Source: Eubacteriales bacterium (GTDB lineage: Bacteria; Bacillota; Clostridia; Oscillospirales; CAG-272). From it: a stretch of DNA of 64,000 nucleotides. A program made the position numbers and the translations under genes. Below the pieces are notes generated by a model, which saw nothing but the letters and a program-made list of their open reading frames with translations, was not told the origin of the DNA and ran no database searches. The DNA lies in assembly GCA_045603205.1 (NCBI GenBank), contig JAZULS010000046.1, positions 3,249 to 67,248 on the forward strand, read 5' to 3'. Below are positions 7,557 to 48,326 of the stretch, in pieces (the stretch's first letter is position 1; every line of letters begins with the position of its first letter).

Positions 7557-7895
7557 TTATCCAAGCTTCGGAGGCATCTTTTTGCCGCCGAGAATGTGGA
7601 AATGAGCATGGTGAACGCTCTGGCACCCGTCTGTACCAACGTTTGTAATGATGCGATAACCGTTTGTAAGACCTGCATCAGCGGCGATCTTGGGAATGCA
7701 CTCGAAAATACGCGCAATATATGCCGAATTATCTTCGCTTACCTTGTCAACGGACTCAATGTGAACCTTGGGAATAACGAGAATGTGAACGGGTGCTTCG
7801 GGATTGATGTCATTAAAAGCGAGGATCATATCGTCCTCATAAACCTTGCTTGAGGGTATAACACCTTCAACAATTTTGCAGAAAATGCAGTCCAT
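7557..7895 (-). CDS. HIT family (Hint-like) protein
   Basis: 112 aa starting MDCIFCKI, with the histidine triad HHAHFHILGG. Confidence 0.88.
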   Translation of the reverse strand: MDCIFCKIVEGVIPSSKVYEDDMILAFNDINPEAPVHILVIPKVHIESVDKVSEDNSAYIARIFECIPKIAADAGLTNGYRIITNVGTDGCQSVHHAHFHILGGKKMPPKLG

Positions 7896-39039: not shown

Positions 39040-40125
39040 ATGGAATACGTTACCGAATATAAAAAGCTTTCGTCAGACGTTTTGGGAGAATACTTCGTTG
39101 GATACAACTCTTTCGAAGGATTTGTAGGAAAATATATAGATCAGGTTGATGAAAAGAAACTGAGACGGTTATACGTAATTAAAGGAGCAGCAGGAACGGG
39201 GAAAAGCACCATAATGAAAACCGTTACGGCAGAAGCCCAAAAGGCGGGATATAATGTGGAGCGTTACGCTTGCGGTTCTGATCCGGATTCCCTTGATTTA
39301 ATAATTGTTAACTCAAAAGTGGCACTTATAGACGGTACATCACCCCACAGTCACGATCTTGCTTTTCCGGGAGCTTCTTCAGAATTTATAGATCTATCTA
39401 AATTCTGGGACAGTTCTAAGCTTGTGGAGAAACGTGGCGAAATCATAAATTTAACTGAGCAAAAGAAGCAAAGTTATGAGAATACATACAGACAACTCAG
39501 AGCTGTCAGGACATTAAGACTTGAGAACTCTGATTATATAAAAAAAGTTTTAGATTTACCTAAACTAAATAAGAGTCTTGACCGATTGGTGAAAGGACTG
39601 GGTAAATCTGACGGGGAGGGTAAGGCGATACCAAGGATCTTGAGATCTGTGGGAATGAAAGGATTTTATCGTCTTGACACATTCGAAACCTCTGCGCAAA
39701 CGCTGATTTCGGTTTCCGACGTATATTCGTCGGCTTACGAATACATGCGTTGTTTTGCGGAAAAATTAAAATTCGCCAAACTGAGCTTTGAATATAGCTT
39801 CGATCCTATTTGTCCAGAGCATATTTGCGAGATTTTTGTGCCTTCCGCCTCTGTGCTTGTCACAGTAGAGCAAATTGATAATGCCGACAGACATATCAAT
39901 ATGCATAGATTCGTAAAAAGTGAAGAATTGTCCTCACGCCGAGGATGGTTAAGGCTGTCAGCAAAGTGTTGTAGTTCAATATTAGATGAGGTAAAGGTCT
40001 CACTTGAGGCGGCAGGAAAGGCGCATTTTGCCCTTGAGGGAATATACTCGTCCAGTGTAGATTTTAAAGCTTTGTCGAATTATACGGAAGCACTTGCAGA
40101 GAAGATAATAGCCATGTGCCGTTAA
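39040..40125 (+). CDS. Uncharacterised P-loop ATPase (resembles the PRK06851-type conserved hypothetical family)
   Basis: 361 aa with Walker A IKGAAGTGKST, preceded by GYNSFEGFVGKY and followed by a Walker-B-like VALIDGTSPH. The family assignment is from memory only. Confidence 0.5.
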   Translation: MEYVTEYKKLSSDVLGEYFVGYNSFEGFVGKYIDQVDEKKLRRLYVIKGAAGTGKSTIMKTVTAEAQKAGYNVERYACGSDPDSLDLIIVNSKVALIDGTSPHSHDLAFPGASSEFIDLSKFWDSSKLVEKRGEIINLTEQKKQSYENTYRQLRAVRTLRLENSDYIKKVLDLPKLNKSLDRLVKGLGKSDGEGKAIPRILRSVGMKGFYRLDTFETSAQTLISVSDVYSSAYEYMRCFAEKLKFAKLSFEYSFDPICPEHICEIFVPSASVLVTVEQIDNADRHINMHRFVKSEELSSRRGWLRLSAKCCSSILDEVKVSLEAAGKAHFALEGIYSSSVDFKALSNYTEALAEKIIAMCR

Positions 40126-40240: not shown

Positions 40241-40648
40241 TTGAACGGATTCAGAGCAAAACTTCAGCGTTTTTTTTCGGGCAGATACGGCCTTGACAGC
40301 TTCGGATATTTCCTGCTTATTTTTTACGCTGTCCTTTGTGTAATAAACGCTATTTTCAGATCGTACGTTATTCAGCTTATAACCATAGTTGTAGCAATTT
40401 ATGCTATGTTCCGTCTCATGTCCCGAAATTTCTATAAAAGAAGTGCTGAAAACAGAAAGTTTTTGAAGGTCTGGGGTCCTGTAAAAACCGAACTGAAGCT
40501 GTTTGTTGACAGATTCAAGTATATAAAGACCTCGAGATTCCGTAAATGTAAGCACTGCAAGGCGATAATCAAGCTCCCCTATAAAAAGGGAAAGCACACC
40601 GTCAGATGCCCCAAGTGTTCCCAGAGATTCGACGTAAATATTCTTTAA
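40241..40648 (+). CDS. Zinc-ribbon membrane protein (two TM helices plus a C-terminal CxxC...CxxC)
   Basis: 135 aa with a TTG start 9-10 nt after AAGGGG. It has two hydrophobic helices and then CKHCKAIIKLPYKKGKHTVRCPKCSQRF. Confidence 0.6.
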   Translation: MNGFRAKLQRFFSGRYGLDSFGYFLLIFYAVLCVINAIFRSYVIQLITIVVAIYAMFRLMSRNFYKRSAENRKFLKVWGPVKTELKLFVDRFKYIKTSRFRKCKHCKAIIKLPYKKGKHTVRCPKCSQRFDVNIL

Positions 40649-40655
40649 AATAAAG

Positions 40656-40682
40656 CAGCGGAGGGAAGCCTTCGCTGTTTTT
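40656..40682 (+). terminator. Rho-independent terminator
   Basis: Hairpin CAGCGGAGG-gaag-CCTTCGCTG followed by TTTTT. Confidence 0.85.
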
Positions 40683-40792
40683 GCGTTAGTAGAAATGTTT
40701 GAACTGTTTAGGTAGCCTAACATTAGTTGAATTATTCATTTGCTTGTGGTATAATTGAAGAAAATTAGTTCGATAAACTGGAATTCGGCGAG

Positions 40793-41218
40793 GTGGTGGG
40801 TCTTGTGATATATGAAAAATCATGTGGGGCGGTAGTCTTTAGCCGAAGTAATAACAAAATTAAATATTTGTTAATAAGAAATTTAACAGGCATATACGGA
40901 TTCCCTAAAGGTCATGTCGAACAAGGCGAAACCGAAGAACAAACAGCACTCAGAGAAGTCTTTGAAGAAGTGGGAGTTGTTGTGAAATTTCTTCCTGGCT
41001 TTAGAAGTGAAGATGAACACCCTATTCCACAAAAAGAAAATACCATTAAGCAAATCGTGTACTTCCTTGGTGAGTATTGCGACCAGGAGTTTACTTATCA
41101 AAAAGAAGAATTGACGGATGCTTTATTGCTGGATTACGAAACTGCTATGACTTTGTTTCAATTTGAGAGTAGTAAAAGAATATTAACAGAGGCCAACAAC
41201 TTCTTATTAGGCAGATAA
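40793..41218 (+). CDS. NUDIX hydrolase
   Basis: 141 aa with a GTG start (alternative GTGs at 40796 and 40805). The Nudix box is GFPKGHVEQGETEEQTALREVFEEVGV. Confidence 0.88.
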   Translation: MVGLVIYEKSCGAVVFSRSNNKIKYLLIRNLTGIYGFPKGHVEQGETEEQTALREVFEEVGVVVKFLPGFRSEDEHPIPQKENTIKQIVYFLGEYCDQEFTYQKEELTDALLLDYETAMTLFQFESSKRILTEANNFLLGR

Positions 41219-41243
41219 ATTTCAATTTTAAAGTAAGGTGAGT

Positions 41244-41639
41244 ATGATGGAGTGCGTTTTTTGCCATAAGGAAAAATTAGTCACAGATATTATTTATGAA
41301 GATGAAGTGGTAATGGCTTTTATGGATATGGACCCTATAAATGAAGGGCATATTCTTCTTGTTCCAAAAGCACATTATCTTGATGTAGATGAAATACCAG
41401 ATGAAACACTTTCACATTTGATGATTGTATCAAAGAAAATTGTATCTTCTTTGAAGGAAATATATAAACCTAATGGATATAGTATTATGCAGAATGGTGG
41501 AGAGTTTAATGATGTAGGACATTATCATCTACATATTTTTCCAAGATATATAGGAGATGGCTTTGGGTGGACTTATAAAGAAGATATAAAAGATGTAAAC
41601 TCCGAAATAGCAAAAAGAATTAGAGACAGAATTAAGTAA
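41244..41639 (+). CDS. HIT family protein (second copy in the window)
   Basis: The ORF track gives 41238 (GTG). ATG 41244 lies after AAGGTGA. It has CVFC at the N-terminus and the histidine triad HYHLHIFPR. Confidence 0.88.
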   Translation: MMECVFCHKEKLVTDIIYEDEVVMAFMDMDPINEGHILLVPKAHYLDVDEIPDETLSHLMIVSKKIVSSLKEIYKPNGYSIMQNGGEFNDVGHYHLHIFPRYIGDGFGWTYKEDIKDVNSEIAKRIRDRIK

Positions 41640-41668
41640 ATTCCAATATATGTGGGAGAAATAAGTTT

Positions 41669-42202
41669 ATGATTATTTGGATAAATGGCTGTTTTGGAGT
41701 AGGTAAAACAGAAACTGCAAACAGATTGCAAGGTTTGATAGAAAACTCACATATTTATGACCCAGAGCAGGTCGGAGCCTTTCTATGGGATAATTTTCCC
41801 GTCCCTTTGAAACGCAAAGGTGATTTTCAGGATATTGAACTGTGGAGAGAATTTAATTACAAATATATAAAATATATCTATCATAATTTTGACGGACACA
41901 TTATTATTCCTATGACACTTGTGAATCCCGATTATTATCATGAAATCATTGGCAAATTACAAGCAGATGGAATAGAATTGCTTCACTTTATCTTGAAAGC
42001 ACCGAAAGATGTTATAGTAGAGCGTCTGATACATCGAGGAGAGGAAAAAGGCTCTTGGGCAGAACAGCAGATTGACAGATGTATTAAAGCTTTTGATGGC
42101 AGCATTCATGGCGAAGTAGTTGATACAGAAAAAATGTCTGTCAATGAAGTTACAGAATACATACTAAAAAAATGCTTTTCTTCGACAAATGCTAATTTTT
42201 AG
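41669..42202 (+). CDS. TmrB-like P-loop ATP-binding protein (tunicamycin-resistance protein family)
   Basis: 177 aa. MIIWINGCFGVGKTETA...YDPEQVG...LWREFNY...IIPMTLVNPDYYHEIIG...SWAEQQIDRCI aligns closely along its length with B. subtilis TmrB as I remember it (MIIWINGAFGSGKTQTA...). It lacks the C-terminal amphipathic tail. Confidence 0.75.
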   Translation: MIIWINGCFGVGKTETANRLQGLIENSHIYDPEQVGAFLWDNFPVPLKRKGDFQDIELWREFNYKYIKYIYHNFDGHIIIPMTLVNPDYYHEIIGKLQADGIELLHFILKAPKDVIVERLIHRGEEKGSWAEQQIDRCIKAFDGSIHGEVVDTEKMSVNEVTEYILKKCFSSTNANF

Positions 42203-42214
42203 GAGGTCATTAAG

Positions 42215-42871
42215 ATGATTGATATTACTGCTTGGATGAATGATTTTTTGCAAAAGTTAAATGACACATTCCGCGACCGTGTGTGGTTTGTTGGTTTGCA
42301 AGGCAGTTATGGCCGTGGCGAAGCAACAGAAACCAGCGATATTGATGCTGTTGTAATACTTGATGAATTATCTGTTTTAGATATTCAATCATATAATGCA
42401 ATGCTGAATACCTTGCCGAGAAGAGAACTGGTTTGCGGATTTATTTCAGGCAAAGAAGAGATTTTGAACTGGGAGCCATCCGACCTTTTTCAATTTTATA
42501 ATGACACAACACCTATAAAAGGAAGTCTTGATGAACTGCTTTCGGTAATTGACGAGGGAGCAGTTGACAGAGCGATAAAAATCTGCGCCTGCAACATTTA
42601 CCACGGCTGCGTACACAATATGCTTCACGAAAAGAGCGAAGAGGTTTTACGAGGTCTGTATAAATCGGCTTCTTTTGTTGTACAGGCAATCGTTTTTAAA
42701 CAGAAGGGTGAATATATCCGTCATCAAAAGGAACTGCTTGATGTGGTGTCGTCCGAGGAACACGCCATTGCGGAAATCTTTTTGCACTTGAAAAACGGTG
42801 GCGAGATGGACTTTGCATCAATGTCCGAGACCCTGTTTGCGTGGTCAAAAAGGTGGATCGGAGCTAAGTAA
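42215..42871 (+). CDS. Pol-beta superfamily nucleotidyltransferase with a C-terminal helical domain (KNTase-like architecture)
   Basis: 218 aa with the NTase motif GLQGSYGRGEATETSDIDAVVILD (GS...DxD), followed by a ~110-aa helical region. The substrate is unknown. Confidence 0.7.
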   Translation: MIDITAWMNDFLQKLNDTFRDRVWFVGLQGSYGRGEATETSDIDAVVILDELSVLDIQSYNAMLNTLPRRELVCGFISGKEEILNWEPSDLFQFYNDTTPIKGSLDELLSVIDEGAVDRAIKICACNIYHGCVHNMLHEKSEEVLRGLYKSASFVVQAIVFKQKGEYIRHQKELLDVVSSEEHAIAEIFLHLKNGGEMDFASMSETLFAWSKRWIGAK

Positions 42872-42872
42872 A

Positions 42873-42898
42873 ACAAAAAACTCCCCAAAAGGGGAGTT
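42873..42898 (-). terminator. Terminator of tRNA-Thr (minus strand)
   Basis: Hairpin AACTCCCC-tttt-GGGGAGTT followed on the minus strand by TTTTTTGTTTT. It lies 1 nt after the tRNA 3' end. Confidence 0.8.
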
Positions 42899-42899
42899 A

Positions 42900-42972
42900 A
42901 GCTGGTGACCGGACTTGAACCGGTGACCTGTTGATTACGAATCAACTGCTCTACCGACTGAGCCACACCAGC
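42900..42972 (-). tRNA. tRNA-Thr (anticodon CGU)
   Basis: The minus-strand read gives acceptor GCTGGTG/CACCAGC, T-arm ACCGG-TTCAAGT-CCGGT, and anticodon stem GTTGA/TCAAC with loop TTCGTAA (anticodon CGT). No CCA is encoded. Confidence 0.85.
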
Positions 42973-45303: not shown

Positions 45304-45834
45304 TTACAAATACAGCTCAACGATTCGTCTGCTTTTCTTGTCAAGCTGACTCAAAGGCGGGAGCTTAAAACGGTTGCCGTCAATATCCGTTATCATGATA
45401 TCACCGAACTTGTTTACGATAACGTTTGAACCGGACGTGCGGGTTGAAAAAGAAATCTCTCCCTCGTCACCGATGCATTTCCAAAAAGAAGAACCGAACC
45501 TTTCCTTAACGGAAATTACACTTTTAAGACAGCAAACGTAGTATTTGTTCAGAAGTTCCTTTTTTAAAAGCTCTGCTTCAGTCTCACCAAAAACGTCCAA
45601 GTTGTCGATTATGCCTATCTCTACAGAATCGCTGTCGAGTACGGAGATGAACTTCCACGGCATATCAAAAGGGAAGTTTCGGTGCAGATTTACCCTCGAA
45701 TATTTGCTTTCTTCTCCGCTTGTGGAAACTATCGTACCTAAAAAATCGCCTCTTTTTTCGAAAGTGCAGTTTTCGGGGGTGAGATACAGTATTCCAGCGG
45801 CTTCAAGCAGCTGTTTTTCCGAATTTTTATCCAT
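45304..45834 (-). CDS. DUF1854-like soluble protein
   Basis: 176 aa with no TM segment. It lies between two ABC exporter genes. The sequence (YLTPENCTFEKRGDF...NLHRNFPFD.PWKFISV...) fits my recollection of PF08909, an uncharacterised domain linked to Gram-positive ABC ATPases. Confidence 0.55.
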   Translation of the reverse strand: MDKNSEKQLLEAAGILYLTPENCTFEKRGDFLGTIVSTSGEESKYSRVNLHRNFPFDMPWKFISVLDSDSVEIGIIDNLDVFGETEAELLKKELLNKYYVCCLKSVISVKERFGSSFWKCIGDEGEISFSTRTSGSNVIVNKFGDIMITDIDGNRFKLPPLSQLDKKSRRIVELYL

Positions 45835-45871: not shown

Positions 45872-48277
45872 TTATTCTTCTACGCCTACGTTCTTTAATG
45901 CCGCAAGCTGGAGAGAATATAGCTTAAAATATTCGCCTTTGGCTCGGATGAGTTCTTCGTGAGTGCCTCTTTCACAGATTTCTCCGTCCTTCAGCACTAT
46001 TAACCTGTCTGCTATTCGCAAGGTAGAGAGTCGGTGGGCGATCATGATGGTAGTCTTGCCCTTGATCAGAATTTCAAGTGCATTTTGAATTTTTCGCTCG
46101 GTCTGAGTATCCATTGCAGCCGTTGCCTCATCAAGGATAAGGATGGACGGATCCTGCAGAATAGCCCGTGCAATAGATAGTCGCTGTCTTTCTCCGCCGG
46201 AAAGCTCTCTCATACCGAATCCAATACGGGTCTGATATCCGTCGGGAAGCTTTACGATGAAATCATGTGCGCCTGAAATTTTGGAAGCCTTGATAACCTC
46301 CTCAGCGGTAGCATCGGGCCTTGCATATCGGATGTTGTCAAGAATCGTTCCTACGAACAGATAAGTTTCCTGAGAAACGATAGCTATGTTTCGTCTGAGG
46401 GATGGGATCTCGATCTCACGTATGGAATGACCGTCTATTCTGATGTCTCCGGAATCTACGTCGTACATTCTGAGAAGCAGATTGGCAAGGGTAGATTTTC
46501 CGGCTCCGGTATGGCCGACAACACCGAGGATCGTGCCGCCTGCTATGTCAAAATCAATATCCCGTAACACAAGTCTGGATTTGTCATAACCGAAATTAAC
46601 GTCTTTGAAGGAGATGTCTCCATCGAAACGTTCCTTATGAATCGGATTTTCCGATTCAAAAATCTCCTGTTCGGCGTCCATGACCTCAACAAGGCGGTTC
46701 ATGGCATTAAGTCCCTTGGTTGCATCGTATGACATAGACACGAACTGCTGCATGGGGCTGTAGATCATTCCCGTATAGGCAGTGAAGGTTAGGAGCAAAC
46801 CGTAGTCAAGTTTGTTTTGAATTACCATCCATCCGCCGAACCCGAGTACCAAGGAGTTGCCTAATAACATCAGTATGTTGGCAAGCGGTGAGGTGAAAAT
46901 ATTGAATCTTGACGCTGCCATATCCCCTTCGGCAGCCTTTTTGTTTACTGAAGTAAATCTGACAGAGCCTTCTTCTTCTTTTGCGAAAGCTTTGACGACT
47001 CTCATTCCCGAAAAAGTGTCGCTGACGAAGGCGTTCATTCTTCTGCGTCCCGCATAACTCTTTTCGTGGTACTTGTTCATTTTAGTGAACAGGAACCTTC
47101 CTACGAAGAAGATAAAAGGGATGGTGACCAGATACATCAGAGTTAGGACTGGCTGTATGAGGAACATAATTATAACGATACAAATTATCTGTACTATGTT
47201 AATCAGGAAGTAGGGAATACCGTTTGAGAAAAACCAATGTATGGTTCCGGCATCCTGATTAACCTGCGTCATTAAAGCTCCCGTCTGTTTGTCGGTGAAA
47301 TATCTCAGCGACAGACGCTCGATAGAAGCAAAAATAACGTTTTTCAAATCATACTGCAACTTAGATGCTATTCTTGAGCTGACGATATGATTGACTATTG
47401 AAACGAGGGTGGAAAGAAGGCGGGTGCCGATGATAAGTGATAAAACGAGTATTAGCTGTCCGTAGAATTTGCCGGCTTCATTCAGAACCTCGTCATAGAA
47501 GAATCCTGAGCTTATGTATGGGGTCAGAATTCCGAGAGCTGATGTGGACAGTAGTATAAGAATAGATAGGATGACTTCTTTTTTATACTTAACAACAAAA
47601 CTGAGGATGCGTTTTATTATTTTTCCCTTGTCCATGCAGTTTGTGCAAATCCGTCTTGCAGGATCCGAATATTTTTTGTTGCACTTAGGGCAGTAAAGGG
47701 GACCCTTAGGGCTCATTTTACCGTCTTCTCCGACTTTTCCGTGAAGGTGAGGCGGCATGCTACCGTGGAAACCGTGAGGCGGATGCGTCATGGCAGATTC
47801 TTTTGTTGCCTCATCTTTTGCTTCGAGATTCATTTCGTGGGACAGCCGTGAAAGCTCGGATTTCGTAGAGTTTGTAGCCATAACGAGAAGCTTGTCTTCA
47901 CCTGTGGAAGTGGAACCTACGATAGCCGCGCTGTAGTTGAATTCTTCATAAGAAAATTTGCTGAAATCAGACAAAGAATATTCCTGAAAATCACTTTCTT
48001 TAAAGGTTTCAACTGCTTTTTGACGCCTGAAAAGCGTTTTCTTTTCTGAAGTAATGCCCAATGCACCCGTTATAACGTAAAGGGTAGATTTCGTGAGTAC
48101 ACAAACCGTGTCGCATCGCATATTCTCAACGCTTAGATCAGTCAGTCCGTGAGCTATGACCTCGTCGGCATTGATTTCGTGAGAATTGAGAATATCACGA
48201 AGGTAAGGCGGCATAGGTGTCGCCTCTTTTATTGGAGGATGAGGAAAACTTTCCTCGTGTTTGATGCCTTTTTCCAT
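45872..48277 (-). CDS. ABC exporter half-transporter (TMD+NBD) with a ~225-aa N-terminal cytoplasmic module, His/Met/Pro motifs and a zinc ribbon
   Basis: The ORF track gives 45872..48322. ATG 48277 lies downstream of AAGGAGG and of the predicted -10 box, so I prefer it (801 aa). The ribbon is CPKC-x11-CTNC at residues 196-214. The NBD has GHTGAGKST, LSGGERQR, ILILDEATAAMD and IAHRLST. Confidence 0.85.
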   Translation of the reverse strand: MEKGIKHEESFPHPPIKEATPMPPYLRDILNSHEINADEVIAHGLTDLSVENMRCDTVCVLTKSTLYVITGALGITSEKKTLFRRQKAVETFKESDFQEYSLSDFSKFSYEEFNYSAAIVGSTSTGEDKLLVMATNSTKSELSRLSHEMNLEAKDEATKESAMTHPPHGFHGSMPPHLHGKVGEDGKMSPKGPLYCPKCNKKYSDPARRICTNCMDKGKIIKRILSFVVKYKKEVILSILILLSTSALGILTPYISSGFFYDEVLNEAGKFYGQLILVLSLIIGTRLLSTLVSIVNHIVSSRIASKLQYDLKNVIFASIERLSLRYFTDKQTGALMTQVNQDAGTIHWFFSNGIPYFLINIVQIICIVIIMFLIQPVLTLMYLVTIPFIFFVGRFLFTKMNKYHEKSYAGRRRMNAFVSDTFSGMRVVKAFAKEEEGSVRFTSVNKKAAEGDMAASRFNIFTSPLANILMLLGNSLVLGFGGWMVIQNKLDYGLLLTFTAYTGMIYSPMQQFVSMSYDATKGLNAMNRLVEVMDAEQEIFESENPIHKERFDGDISFKDVNFGYDKSRLVLRDIDFDIAGGTILGVVGHTGAGKSTLANLLLRMYDVDSGDIRIDGHSIREIEIPSLRRNIAIVSQETYLFVGTILDNIRYARPDATAEEVIKASKISGAHDFIVKLPDGYQTRIGFGMRELSGGERQRLSIARAILQDPSILILDEATAAMDTQTERKIQNALEILIKGKTTIMIAHRLSTLRIADRLIVLKDGEICERGTHEELIRAKGEYFKLYSLQLAALKNVGVEE

Positions 48278-48326
48278 TATTAAGTCTTTCCTCCTTGAAA
48301 AATTTATCGCAAAAATATACATTATA

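What the first reader, a model, noticed from the sequence alone, without database searches (positions are those of the whole stretch)
40793..42972. A+T-richer four-gene nucleotide-enzyme cassette (Nudix, HIT, TmrB-like, nucleotidyltransferase) sits against the 3' end of tRNA-Thr
Seen in sequence: four plus-strand genes are packed with gaps of about 25, 29 and 12 nt. They begin right after a terminator (40656-40682) and end 29 nt from the 3' end of a convergent tRNA-Thr(CGU). By eye the cassette uses AAA, ATT, TTA/TTG and GAA far more than the AAG, ATC, CTT and GAG that dominate the core genes. Spot counts of single 60-nt lines gave about 32-47 % G+C here against about 38-55 % in core genes, which is not a rigorous estimate. 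Motifs are clear: the Nudix box GFPKGHVEQGETEEQTALREVFEEVGV, the HIT triad HYHLHIFPR, a TmrB-like N-terminus MIIWINGCFGVGKT, and the pol-beta NTase motif GSYGRGEATETSDIDAV. A host-composition HIT gene already exists at 7557-7895, so this HIT gene is a second copy. Established knowledge: tRNA 3' ends are classical insertion points for acquired DNA. TmrB and KNTase-type NTases are antibiotic-resistance families. Inference: all four products act on nucleotides or nucleotidylated molecules. The NTase adds NMP, HIT removes NMP, Nudix cleaves NDP-X, and TmrB binds ATP. The set may therefore act together as a resistance/detoxification module or as a nucleotide-modification (possibly anti-phage) module rather than as four unrelated genes.
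Basis: partly seen in the sequence, partly recalled or inferred. Interest (0 to 1): 0.6.

Follow-up and report, generated by a model that had tools for sequence, protein, structure and literature searches.

The report
Patchwork islet of four nucleotide enzymes
Four small nucleotide-handling enzyme genes sit in one A+T-rich operon against a tRNA gene, but they look like a patchwork of separately acquired accessory genes, not a conserved resistance or anti-phage system, so the finding is real but fairly ordinary.

Summary
Four tightly packed plus-strand genes run from a promoter-like site to a hairpin shared with a convergent tRNA-Thr(CGU). They are Nudix, HIT, a TmrB/TmrD-like P-loop protein and an ANT-like pol-beta nucleotidyltransferase (NTase). 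This stretch is the most A+T-rich part of the 64-kb window.

The anomaly sits in three genes. GC3 z-scores are -2.2 (Nudix), -3.7 (HIT) and -2.8 (TmrB-like). The NTase is only mildly atypical at -1.0.

Acquisition is supported by:
- composition;
- unsaturated dS of 0.6-0.8 to copies in unrelated, G+C-richer genomes;
- an identical TmrB-like gene carried as cargo on an integrative mobilizable element.

There is no integrase, no flanking repeat and no duplicated tRNA end. The available relatives are too distant for a presence/absence test.

The "one functional module" idea is not supported. In about 18 independent contexts, the closest homologues of each gene stand alone or sit with other small enzymes such as GNAT, APH, HD and Macro. 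Only the HIT-TmrB pair recurs, once, and with discordant divergence. Homology breakpoints show a mosaic: the TmrB-like ORF ends by reading into the NTase's own conserved leader.

No defence or resistance family test is met. The best reading is a co-transcribed patchwork of independently acting, purifying-selected housecleaning or xenobiotic-modifying enzymes. Interest is low to moderate.

The parts
40661..40682 (+). Terminator-like hairpin plus T-run that ends the upstream Zn-ribbon gene (40241-40648) and marks the left edge of the operon
   Evidence: stem 40661-40673, then GCTGTTTTTG; sequence
40727..40755 (+). Promoter-like site TTGAAT-17-TATAAT with a TG extended -10. It is the only strong candidate promoter upstream of the four genes
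   Evidence: 10/12 match, TG present. The region shows weak similarity to the promoter/leader of NTase homologues in L001/L004 (p about 0.01-0.02, tentative)
40805..41218 (+).
   Evidence: Pfam NUDIX 1.3e-13. Best PDB matches are Ap4A hydrolases, 7e-13 to 4e-11. Its 90%-identity cluster has 108 members, mostly 137 aa. Homology to L006-8 spans 40806-41228. GC3 is 0.32, z -2.2. dN/dS is 0.08
41244..41639 (+). HIT (Hint-branch) hydrolase, 131 aa, with HYHLHIF triad and N-terminal CxxC; a second HIT copy in this window
   Evidence: Pfam HIT 2.9e-21. PDB 3imi/1y23 at 6e-23 and 4e-22. 713 homologues, the best 84-89% identical. GC3 is 0.22, z -3.7, the lowest in the window. dN/dS is 0.05-0.10
41669..42202 (+). 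TmrB/TmrD-like small P-loop protein, 177 aa, Walker A GCFGVGKT. The last 7 codons (SSTNANF*) are read from the NTase leader
   Evidence: PDB 2vli TmrD at 1.4e-16. 35% identity to plasmid tmrB in 2,314 plasmid records. Homologues mostly end at ...KCF plus a few variable residues. DNA homology to L005 ends at 42179 and to L097 at 42172. GC3 is 0.29, z -2.8
42173..42181 (.). Mosaic junction. Homology to TmrB-like loci stops here and homology to NTase loci begins
   Evidence: blastn end-points; alignments
42182..42214 (+). Conserved 33-nt NTase leader with ribosome-binding site (TCGACAAAT...GGAGGTCATTAAG). NTase homologues in L001, L003 and L004 share it, and there it follows their own promoter
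   Evidence: alignment A3; homology to L001-3 starts at 42182
42215..42871 (+). Pol-beta-fold nucleotidyltransferase, 218 aa, with an N-terminal GS-x10-DID catalytic motif and a C-terminal helical domain (ANT/KNTase-like architecture). Probably the older resident gene
   Evidence: Pfam NTP_transf_2 2.4e-7. More than 8,000 homologues, the best non-self 76-81% identical. AF2 pLDDT is 66.7. Top Foldseek hits are ANT(4'), AAD(9), AadA and LinB, at E about 2e-3 and TM 0.35-0.41. GC3 z is -1.0. dS to nearest copies is 1.7-2.1. A 58% homologue lies 6.8 kb from the ABC orthologue in relative L015
42879..42898 (.). G+C-rich hairpin AACTCCCCTTTTGGGGAGTT between the NTase stop and the tRNA 3' end. On the minus strand it is followed by a T-run (tRNA terminator). 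On the plus strand it is preceded by an A-tract, so it is possibly bidirectional
   Evidence: sequence
42900..42972 (-). Intact tRNA-Thr(CGU), convergent with the operon. The ABC-tRNA-Thr(CGT) linkage is kept in relatives L009, L014 and L029
   Evidence: 93% identity over 102 nt to L029
7557..7895 (-). Host-composition HIT gene (112 aa), the resident paralogue
   Evidence: Pfam HIT 1e-24; 32% identity to the cassette HIT; GC3 z +0.02

Best explanation
This is a small mosaic accessory-gene islet, not a dedicated multi-component system.

Origin (inferred). An older resident NTase gene sits convergent to tRNA-Thr. It has had three younger, much more A+T-rich, horizontally circulating genes placed directly in front of its leader: Nudix, HIT and TmrB-like. 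All four are now probably transcribed from one promoter-like site (40727-40755) and end at the hairpin shared with the tRNA.

Function (inferred). Each product is a stand-alone enzyme with its own ribosome-binding site and acts independently.
- Nudix: pyrophosphohydrolase of the Ap4A-hydrolase type.
- HIT: Hint-type hydrolase of AMP-N or AMP-acyl conjugates.
- TmrB/TmrD-like: ATP-binding small kinase-fold protein.
- NTase: two-domain ANT-like enzyme that would nucleotidylate a small-molecule hydroxyl.

Their likely roles are nucleotide housecleaning and/or modification of xenobiotics such as nucleoside, aminoacyl-adenylate or aminoglycoside-like antibiotics.

What is shown: domain identities, operon layout, composition, purifying selection, mosaic junctions, and the lack of conserved co-occurrence.

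What is inferred: the order of arrival, co-transcription, and all substrates.
For: 1. Layout: one promoter-like site, four ORFs with 12-29 nt gaps, each preceded by a Shine-Dalgarno sequence, and terminal hairpins.

2. Composition: Nudix, HIT and TmrB-like have the three lowest GC3 values of 58 ORFs. The NTase is at z -1.0.

3. Foreign signature: each homologue in another genome is 4-20 G+C points below its own flanks.

4. Spread: the Nudix 90%-identity cluster has 108 members and the TmrB-like cluster has 7. Core neighbours and the NTase are singletons.

5. Divergence: dS is 0.75 (Nudix), 0.6 (HIT) and 0.78 (TmrB-like), against 1.7-2.1 for the NTase and saturation for core ABC733. dN/dS is 0.05-0.15 for all four.

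6. Mobility: an identical TmrB-like protein occurs on an element with serine recombinase, Mob_Pre relaxase and primase. It also occurs in a chromosomal trx/trxB context, with 99.2% identical DNA over 751 nt.

7. No conserved module:
- The NTase stands alone in L001-4.
- Nudix stands alone beside yebC.
- TmrB-like stands alone in L005, L089-95, L105-114 and L115.
- HIT sits with GNAT, APH and HD in L098-103, and with GNAT, Macro and ADP-ribosylglycohydrolase in L104.

8. Mosaic junctions lie at 41229-41236 and 42173-42181. The TmrB-like tail is read from the conserved NTase leader.

9. The neighbourhood is core (hflX, dnaG, rpoD, ABC exporters, dacA, pgi, ileS) and has no mobility genes.
Against: - The HIT-TmrB pair recurs in the same order in L097. 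There it lies inside another A+T-rich islet near convergent tRNAs. Some functional or mechanistic linkage of that pair cannot be excluded.
- Tight packing under one promoter means the genes are co-regulated, which is compatible with a joint role.
- All four act on nucleotides or nucleotidylated molecules, a coherent theme.
- Context sampling is limited to about 18 independent loci, so rarer recurrences of the full set could have been missed.
- The closest available relatives are only 57-64% identical in ABC733. Insertion was therefore not shown by presence/absence.
- The window comes from a metagenome-assembled contig, so read-level support for the junctions could not be checked.
- Co-transcription and every substrate are untested.
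Confidence: 0.65

Rival explanations
1. A collected mini-resistome. The four genes are independent antibiotic-modifying or detoxifying determinants that selection has gathered into one operon. TmrB-like would act on tunicamycin-type or aminoglycoside-type drugs. HIT would act on microcin-C-like aminoacyl-adenylates. The ANT-like NTase would act on aminoglycosides or lincosamides. Nudix would clean up by-products.
For: - TmrB family membership by sequence.
- A TmrB/TmrD-like P-loop protein (GAR) is a mobile aminoglycoside-resistance gene (PMC7085159).
- HIT hydrolases confer microcin C resistance (PMC7157772).
- The NTase's best structural matches are all ANT resistance enzymes.
- HIT homologues sit among GNAT and APH genes.
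- The TmrB-like gene is cargo on a mobilizable element.
Against: - No gene reaches any curated resistance-family threshold: ANT(4')-II scores 18 against 350 bits, and the P-loop protein has no NCBIfam hit.
- The NTase fold match is weak (E about 2e-3, TM below 0.42) on a model with pLDDT 66.7.
- Nudix and HIT are most similar to generic Ap4A-hydrolase and Hint housekeeping enzymes.
- Apart from the TmrB-like protein's 35%-identical tmrB matches, the genes have almost no plasmid homologues.
- No phenotype data exist.
Confidence: 0.2
2. A coherent nucleotide-modification pathway or signalling module. The NTase adds an NMP to a target or makes a nucleotide signal. HIT and Nudix remove or degrade it. 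The P-loop protein supplies or senses ATP. The module might act as an anti-phage system.
For: - Single-operon layout.
- The enzymatic themes could in principle be complementary.
- PADLOC gives hits to ThsC (HIT, 1e-10), PDC-S09 (NTase, 2.7e-10) and PDC-S07 (Nudix, 9e-8).
- A weak fold match to the Hailong HalB NTase.
- The HIT-TmrB pair recurs once.
Against: - The PADLOC hits are generic superfamily matches.
- None of the required partners is present: no TIR ThsB or ThsA, no CBASS effector, no HalA-like membrane effector.
- The NTase never co-occurs with HIT, Nudix or TmrB-like in the other contexts examined.
- The genes have different ages and the junctions are mosaic.
- There is essentially no association with viral contigs or phage genomes.
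- The HalB match has probability 0.2 and TM 0.23.
Confidence: 0.07
3. Native, vertically inherited genes. Their low G+C would reflect weak expression or local mutational bias rather than horizontal acquisition.
For: - No integrase, repeats or duplicated att site.
- The low-GC trend already starts upstream at 39-40.7 kb: ATPase361 has GC3 z -1.6.
- An NTase homologue lies near the ABC orthologue in relative L015.
Against: - Nudix, HIT and TmrB-like are 84-87% identical in DNA to copies in genomes whose flanks share nothing with this window.
- Their dS of 0.6-0.8 contrasts with saturated dS for the core gene.
- Those copies are also A+T-rich relative to their own hosts.
- Relatives L009, L014 and L029 keep ABC-tRNA-Thr but carry a different gene beyond the tRNA.
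Confidence: 0.06
4. Assembly chimera. The A+T-rich genes were stitched into this metagenome-assembled contig from another organism.
For: - The window matches a 70,970-bp contig of a MAG.
- The cassette genes have many near relatives in the same kinds of samples.
Against: - The nearest foreign copies are only 77-87% identical in DNA. That is too divergent for k-mer graph mis-joins.
- ORFs, ribosome-binding sites and the fused TmrB-like/leader junction are intact and in frame.
- Similar islets exist in independent assemblies.
Confidence: 0.02

Closest known systems
TmrB (Bacillus subtilis) / TmrD (Deinococcus radiodurans, PDB 2vli) tunicamycin-resistance P-loop proteins, and the related integron-borne GAR aminoglycoside-resistance protein
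   Same: - N-terminal Walker A motif (GCFGVGKT).
- Small size, about 175-195 aa.
- Full-length sequence similarity to TmrD (E=1.4e-16, query residues 2-165) and to plasmid tmrB (35% identity).
- Mobile in some genomes, as tmrB and gar are (PMC7085159).
   Different: - Only about 35% identical to characterised members.
- Ends at residue 177, without the extra C-terminal segment described as TmrB's membrane anchor (PMC7085159 citing Noda 1992). It therefore resembles the soluble TmrD/GAR type more.
- No resistance phenotype has been tested.
- No NCBIfam model matches it.
ANT-type two-domain antibiotic nucleotidyltransferases: KNTase/ANT(4'), AAD(9), AadA, LinB
   Same: - Pol-beta catalytic motif G-S-x10-D-x-D at the N-terminus, followed by a helical C-terminal domain.
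- Size of about 220-260 aa.
- All top Foldseek PDB hits are from this group.
- The only PDB sequence hit is ANT(4')-IIb.
   Different: - Sequence similarity is limited to about 60 N-terminal residues (E 0.006-0.06).
- NCBIfam ANT(4')-II scores 18 bits against a cut-off of 350.
- The model is of low confidence (pLDDT 66.7) and TM-scores are 0.35-0.41.
- It belongs to a very large uncharacterised family in gut Clostridia, with more than 8,000 homologues.
Hint-branch HIT hydrolases (B. subtilis Hit 1y23, B. anthracis 3imi; MccH-type microcin C resistance HITs)
   Same: - HxHxHxx triad.
- About 130 aa.
- E of about 1e-22 to the Bacillus HIT structures.
- The family contains proven peptide-nucleotide antibiotic resistance enzymes (PMC7157772).
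   Different: - A second, divergent copy, 32% identical to the resident HIT.
- Below all NCBIfam equivalog cut-offs.
- Specificity is unknown.
Asymmetric Ap4A hydrolase-type Nudix enzymes (human NUDT2, Aquifex Ap4A hydrolase, Chlamydia CT771)
   Same: - Complete Nudix box.
- Size of about 135-155 aa.
- Best PDB matches at 7e-13 to 4e-11 over the full length.
   Different: - Low identity.
- No equivalog-level match.
- Substrate untested.
tRNA-associated genomic islands (integrase-mediated insertion at tRNA 3' ends)
   Same: - A compositionally atypical block abuts the 3' end of a tRNA.
- Gene order beyond the tRNA differs from relatives.
- TmrB-like genes also abut convergent tRNAs in L092 and lie near them in L097.
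   Different: - Only 2.1 kb.
- No integrase, no flanking direct repeats and no duplicated tRNA 3' segment.
- Internally mosaic, with genes of different ages.

Membership tests
Nudix hydrolase superfamily | Nudix box G-x5-E-x7-R-E-U-x-E-E-x-G-U within an alpha/beta/alpha fold domain | tested here: met
   GHVEQGETEEQTALREVFEEVGV is read directly from the translation. Pfam NUDIX is 51.5 bits against a cut-off of 21.1.
HIT superfamily (Hint branch) | Histidine triad H-phi-H-phi-H-phi-phi and the HIT domain | tested here: met
   HYHLHIF. Pfam HIT is 76.3 bits against a cut-off of 21.5. PDB 3imi at 6e-23.
TmrB/TmrD tunicamycin-resistance protein family | N-terminal Walker A and full-length sequence similarity to TmrB/TmrD | tested here: met
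   GCFGVGKT. 2vli (TmrD) at E=1.4e-16 over query residues 2-165. 35% identity over about 95% coverage to annotated plasmid tmrB.
TmrB/TmrD tunicamycin-resistance protein family | C-terminal amphipathic membrane anchor (TmrB sensu stricto) | tested here: inconclusive
   The protein ends at residue 177. Its last 7 residues come from the NTase leader. No extra C-terminal segment is present. No helix or membrane prediction was run. The anchor is described in PMC7085159.
TmrB/TmrD tunicamycin-resistance protein family | Confers tunicamycin resistance or phosphorylates the drug | not testable with these tools
   Requires MIC and enzyme assays.
ANT / KNTase-type antibiotic nucleotidyltransferases | Pol-beta NTase catalytic motif hG[GS]-x9-13-D-h-[DE]-h | tested here: met
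   GSYGRGEATETSDIDAV. Pfam NTP_transf_2 is 31.5 bits against a cut-off of 21.
ANT / KNTase-type antibiotic nucleotidyltransferases | Two-domain fold with a C-terminal helical substrate-binding domain superposable on ANT(4')/AadA | tested here: inconclusive
   Top Foldseek hits are all ANTs (probability about 1.0). However, E is about 2e-3, TM is 0.35-0.41 and rmsd is about 10-11 A, on a model with pLDDT 66.7.
ANT / KNTase-type antibiotic nucleotidyltransferases | Passes a curated resistance-family model | tested here: not met
   NCBIfam ANT(4')-II is 18.4 bits against a cut-off of 350. No other ANT or Lnu model hit.
tRNA-targeted integrative genomic island | Integrase or recombinase gene in or next to the island | tested here: not met
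   No recombinase or transposase domain in ORFs from 29.7 to 54.9 kb.
tRNA-targeted integrative genomic island | Direct repeat of the tRNA 3' end (attL/attR) flanking the island | tested here: not met
   No flanking repeats. The 17- and 29-nt tRNA 3'-end probes match only the tRNA itself, even with up to 3 mismatches allowed.
tRNA-targeted integrative genomic island | Atypical composition relative to the host | tested here: met
   37.1% against 45.8% G+C, in the lowest 3% of equal-length windows. GC3 z is -2.2 to -3.7 for three genes.
tRNA-targeted integrative genomic island | Presence/absence polymorphism at the same tRNA in close relatives | tested here: inconclusive
   The nearest genomes are only 57-64% identical in ABC733. 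They keep ABC-tRNA-Thr(CGT) but carry a 370-aa transporter beyond the tRNA. No conspecific genome was available.
Conserved multi-gene system (operon-level module) | Recurrent co-occurrence of the component families in unrelated genomes | tested here: not met
   None of about 18 independent contexts has the set. One context (L097) has HIT+TmrB.
Known anti-phage systems (Thoeris, CBASS, Hailong) via PADLOC models | Signature partners present: TIR ThsB + ThsA; CD-NTase + effector; HalB + HalA channel | tested here: not met
   Only generic HIT, NTase and Nudix hits. Neighbours are a Zn-ribbon protein, an ATPase, a tRNA and ABC exporters. The HalB fold match has probability 0.2.
Integron gene-cassette array | attC recombination sites (about 57-141 nt) between cassettes, and an integron integrase | tested here: not met
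   Intergenic gaps are 25, 29 and 12 nt. No inverted-repeat sites lie between the genes. No integrase.

The most novel reading that the evidence does not exclude
These A+T-rich, gene-sized units would form a circulating pool of unrecognised nucleoside- or nucleotide-antibiotic resistance determinants in gut and rumen Clostridia. The HIT-TmrB-like pair would be the core; Nudix and the ANT-like NTase would belong too. Integrative mobilizable elements would spread them. They would then be deposited, by an unknown integrase-independent route, preferentially at operon ends and tRNA 3' ends, where they accrete into read-through operons such as this one.
Probability: 0.12. Interest if true: 0.55.

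Novelty: new member of a known kind. Interest (0 to 1): 0.22.

Why it matters
As it stands, the result mainly corrects an attractive over-reading. A tidy operon of thematically related enzymes beside a tRNA is not, by that fact alone, a system or an island in the classical sense.

Modest value remains in three places.

1. The TmrB-like and HIT genes belong to widely shared, purifying-selected, mobile-element-associated families in animal-gut Clostridia. Their relatives include proven antibiotic-resistance enzymes, so they are reasonable candidates for functional resistome screens.

2. There is a recurring pattern of gene-sized A+T-rich inserts in G+C-richer genomes, sometimes abutting tRNA genes. 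It hints at an integration route that leaves no recombinase or repeat footprint.

3. The locus is a clean small example of operon growth by accretion, with one ORF's 3' end recruited from the next gene's leader.

Tried and rejected
- **Exact-protein look-ups** of the window's NTase and its identical database entry P0001 returned nothing. The source contig itself could not be retrieved.
- **Synteny test.** A genome-collection scan with flanking ABC733 found only distant relatives of 64% identity or less. It gave no direct presence/absence test. Genes downstream of the tRNA in those relatives are absent from the window.
- **Phage or plasmid origin.** DNA searches matched only the tRNA. Viral-contig scans for all four proteins gave nothing or edge hits. 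PHROGs gave generic hits.
- **Defence system.** PADLOC gave only superfamily-level matches.
- **att sites.** No repeat flanks the cassette, and the L097 88-nt repeat has no counterpart in the window.
- **Integron-like array.** Rejected because the gaps are 12-29 nt.
- **Riboswitch or leader RNA.** Rfam found only the tRNA.
- **NTase structure.** The AF2 model was mediocre, so fold assignment stays tentative. A profile-versus-PDB search added nothing.
- **Duplicated promoter/leader.** I looked for the NTase promoter/leader duplicated upstream of Nudix as a target-site-like duplication. Similarity to the L001/L004 upstream regions is weak (p about 0.01-0.02). The two window copies are not significantly alike (p=0.77). 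I treat this as unproven.
- **Matching contig lengths.** I compared 'longest contig' lengths between homologue lists as a proxy for co-location. Only the 42,108-bp contig (L097) is a credible shared long contig. Short-contig coincidences (1436, 1642 and 5400 bp) are within chance expectation.

Full report
**1. What is in the sequence**

The ORF list, tRNA scan and raw sequence confirm four plus-strand genes. They lie between a terminator-like hairpin (40661-40682) and a convergent tRNA-Thr(CGT) at 42900-42972 (Rfam 73 bits).

Comparison with homologues moves two start codons:
- Nudix is 40805-41218 (137 aa, as in its 90%-identity cluster).
- HIT is 41244-41639 (131 aa, as in P0145).
- The TmrB-like gene is 41669-42202.
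- The NTase is 42215-42871.

With these starts the gaps are 25, 29 and 12 nt. The NTase stop is 28 nt from the tRNA 3' end.

A promoter-like site, TTGAAT-17-TG-n-TATAAT, lies at 40727-40755. A G+C-rich hairpin at 42879-42898 lies between the NTase and the tRNA. Each ORF is preceded by a Shine-Dalgarno-like sequence. Co-transcription is therefore likely, but it is an inference.

**2. Domain identities**

- Pfam: NUDIX 1.3e-13, HIT 2.9e-21, NTP_transf_2 2.4e-7. The P-loop protein gets only sub-threshold AAA_18/AAA_33 hits.
- The P-loop protein matches the Deinococcus tunicamycin-resistance protein TmrD (2vli) at E=1.4e-16 over nearly its full length. It also matches plasmid-borne tmrB at 35% identity in 2,314 plasmid records. 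'TmrB-like' is therefore correct.
- The Nudix protein is closest to asymmetric Ap4A hydrolases.
- The HIT protein is closest to Bacillus Hint-type HIT proteins.
- The NTase has no close solved relative. ANT(4')-IIb matches the first 60 or so residues.
- An AlphaFold model of the NTase is of middling quality (pLDDT 66.7). Its best PDB matches are all two-domain ANT resistance enzymes: ANT(4'), AAD(9), AadA and LinB. The scores are weak, with E about 2e-3 and TM 0.35-0.41.
- No curated NCBIfam resistance or equivalog model is passed by any of the four.
- The second HIT at 7557-7895 is real, is 32% identical to the cassette HIT, and has host-like composition.

**3. Composition**

The cassette is 37.1% G+C against 45.8% for the window. 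That is about 3 sd below equal-length windows and in the lowest 3%.

Among 58 non-overlapping ORFs, HIT, TmrB-like and Nudix have the three lowest GC3 values (0.22, 0.29 and 0.32; z -3.7, -2.8 and -2.2). The NTase (0.42, z -1.0) is within the normal spread.

**4. Is it an island at the tRNA?**

There is no recombinase or other mobility gene from 29.7 to 54.9 kb. The neighbours are hflX, an HD phosphohydrolase, dnaG, two rpoD-like genes, ABC exporters with DUF1854, dacA, pgi and ileS. No direct repeats flank the cassette. The tRNA 3' end has no second copy in the window.

A scan of species-representative genomes with the flanking ABC exporter found only distant relatives, 57-64% identical. Three of their loci (L009, L014, L029) keep the ABC-tRNA-Thr(CGT) linkage. 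L029 shares 93% identity over 102 nt around the tRNA. Beyond the tRNA, L009 and L029 carry a 370-aa transporter instead, and that transporter is absent from the window. This fits a variable region at the tRNA but is not a presence/absence proof.

**5. Evidence for horizontal origin, and different ages**

- In the 90%-identity protein clustering, Nudix has 108 cluster mates and TmrB-like has 7. The NTase, ATPase361 and ABC733 are singletons.
- DNA identity to copies in unrelated contexts is 86% (Nudix, L006-8), 87% (HIT, L104) and 84% (TmrB-like, L005). It is limited to the coding sequence plus 10-30 nt on either side.
- In every foreign locus the homologue is itself 4-20 G+C points below its flanks.
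- Nei-Gojobori estimates give dS of 0.75 (Nudix), 0.60-0.63 (HIT) and 0.78 (TmrB-like). The NTase gives 1.7-2.1, and core ABC733 is saturated against its nearest relatives.
- dN/dS is 0.05-0.15 throughout, so all four are functional genes.
- One TmrB-like protein (P0277) is encoded identically in two settings. One is an element with serine recombinase, Mob_Pre relaxase and primase (L105-108). The other is a chromosomal trx/trxB setting (L109-110). The two share 99.2% identical DNA over 751 nt.
- A relative (L015, ABC 63% identical) has an NTase homologue (58%) 6.8 kb from the ABC gene, in the same relative orientation and with near-native composition. This hints that the NTase is the older resident.

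**6. Mosaic junctions**

- Nudix homology ends at 41228 and HIT homology starts at 41237.
- HIT and TmrB-like are collinear with L097 up to 42172.
- TmrB-like homology to L005 ends at 42179.
- Homology to NTase loci starts at 42182. It includes a 33-nt leader, TCGACAAAT...GAGGT.ATTAAG, which in L001/L003 follows those genes' own promoter.
- TmrB-like homologues mostly end at '...KCF' plus a few variable residues. The window's protein instead continues as SSTNANF*, read from that leader.

The simplest reading is that the A+T-rich genes were placed directly upstream of the NTase leader and displaced its promoter.

The region upstream of Nudix shows weak similarity to the NTase promoter/leader of L001/L004 (p about 0.01-0.02). 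That is suggestive but could reflect shared promoter and ribosome-binding-site motifs.

**7. Is it a module?**

Across about 18 independent contexts, none repeats the set.
- The NTase stands alone: after a nadR-like gene and beside a mobilizable element in L001-3, and between unrelated genes in L004.
- Nudix sits between yebC and an Rce1-like gene.
- TmrB-like stands alone in several places:
  - after ispH-S1;
  - between queT and rpsF;
  - after rluD;
  - in L089-95 and at the edge of viral contig L115.
- HIT lies in a Lachnospiraceae A+T-rich array of more than 10 kb, with GNAT, two to three APH genes, an HTH protein and an HD protein (L098-103).
- HIT also lies with GNAT, LCM, ADP-ribosylglycohydrolase and Macro in L104.

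The only recurrence is HIT-TmrB in L097. There it sits with DUF218 and HD genes in a 2.6-kb A+T-rich islet. That islet is bracketed by an 88-nt direct repeat (92% identity) and lies about 340 nt from convergent tRNA-Tyr and tRNA-Thr(UGU). Even that pair has discordant divergence: HIT dS 0.60 against TmrB-like dS 1.64. It is therefore not a simply co-inherited unit.

A TmrB-like gene also abuts a convergent tRNA-Ser in L092. Counting the window, that makes 3 of about 14 TmrB-like contexts near tRNA 3' ends. This is a mild tendency, not a rule.

**8. Defence and resistance tests**

- PADLOC returns only superfamily-level matches: ThsC HIT 1e-10, PDC-S09 NTase 2.7e-10, PDC-S07 Nudix 9e-8. None of the partner genes those systems require is present.
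- Phage and plasmid DNA collections match only the tRNA.
- Viral-contig scans are essentially empty.
- The literature shows that relatives of two of the families can be resistance genes. HIT hydrolases (MccH) resist microcin C (PMC7157772). The TmrB/TmrD-like P-loop protein GAR is an integron-borne aminoglycoside-resistance determinant (PMC7085159).

This keeps a 'collected resistance-type enzymes' reading alive for the individual genes, but nothing here demonstrates it.

**9. Verdict**

It is not supported on tRNA-integrase-type insertion or on a coordinated four-enzyme mechanism.

The best explanation (confidence about 0.65) is an operon built by accretion. Three younger, horizontally circulating A+T-rich single-enzyme genes were added in front of an older ANT-like NTase next to tRNA-Thr, and each enzyme works on its own.

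The recurring theme is small, partner-independent nucleotide- or xenobiotic-modifying enzymes. That is what one expects of genes that transfer and function as singletons (inference).

Novelty is low: these are new members of known families in an idiosyncratic arrangement. The residual interest lies in possible unrecognised resistance functions, and in the footprint-free, gene-sized insertion pattern seen across gut Clostridia.

Noticed in passing
L097:7779-7866 and L097:10390-10477: An 88-nt direct repeat (92% identical) brackets a 2.6-kb A+T-rich islet (HIT, TmrB-like, DUF218, HD). The islet has no recombinase and lies about 340 nt from convergent tRNA-Tyr/tRNA-Thr(UGU). The repeat looks like an att-type footprint or a duplicated intergenic element. 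It has no counterpart in the window.
   Followed up: partly
L105-L108 (gene at 6001-6531 in L105) versus L109:1983-2815 and L110: An identical TmrB-like protein lies in two settings. One is an integrative mobilizable element with serine recombinase, Mob_Pre, DUF5906 primase and DUF6076. The other is a chromosomal trx/trxB context. The shared DNA is 99.2% identical over 751 nt, followed by an 83-nt piece. Relative to the element this implies a 1.8-kb deletion. No repeats were seen at the left junction.
   Followed up: partly
L098-L103 (e.g. L098:5500-16390): A same-strand A+T-rich array of more than 10 kb lies downstream of addAB in a Lachnospiraceae MAG. Its G+C is 31-43%, against 42-49% in the flanks. 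It holds GNAT, HIT, APH, APH, an HTH protein, a YfbR-like HD, another APH and many tiny ORFs. It resembles an accretion zone for small accessory enzymes.
   Followed up: no
L092:8001-8540 and tRNA-Ser at L092:8604-8695: A TmrB-like gene (54% identical) ends 64 nt from the 3' end of a convergent tRNA-Ser(GGA) and starts 4 nt after the upstream gene. This is the same geometry as the window's operon end.
   Followed up: partly
L001/L002:6963-12660: The NTase homologue (77% identical) directly abuts an inserted mobilizable element carrying serine recombinase, a relaxase with ParB_N, and a NikA/MobC-like protein. Upstream lie NAD-biosynthesis genes (nadA, nadB, nadC) and a 3H-domain regulator.
   Followed up: no
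window:34679-35758 and window:35837-36934: Two tandem, full-length sigma-70 (RpoD-like) genes follow dnaG. Both have regions 1.2 to 4. This is an apparent duplication of the primary sigma factor.
   Followed up: no
window:40168-40227: A 19-nt inverted repeat (95% complementary, 22-nt loop) lies in the A+T-rich spacer between the PRK06851-like ATPase gene (39040-40125) and the membrane/Zn-ribbon gene (40241-40648). Both of these genes are also somewhat low in G+C, at about 40% (ATPase361 GC3 z -1.6).
   Followed up: no
window:43082-45283 (minus strand), with 45304-45834 and 45872-48322: The ABC exporter next to the tRNA has an N-terminal extension of about 160 aa with a CxxC...CxxC zinc ribbon. 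It is paired with a DUF1854 protein and a second ABC exporter. The trio is conserved in all relatives found (L009-L019).
   Followed up: partly
P0002 (NTase homologue, 315 aa, on a 1,488-bp ENA contig): This homologue carries an internal duplication of about 95 residues of the NTase core. It is probably an assembly artefact or a recent tandem duplication.
   Followed up: no
L015:18957-20188: In a distant relative, the NTase homologue (58% identical) overlaps the 3' end of a PNP_UDP_1 nucleoside phosphorylase/nucleosidase gene by 25 nt. This operon-like arrangement is a possible functional lead for the NTase family.
   Followed up: no
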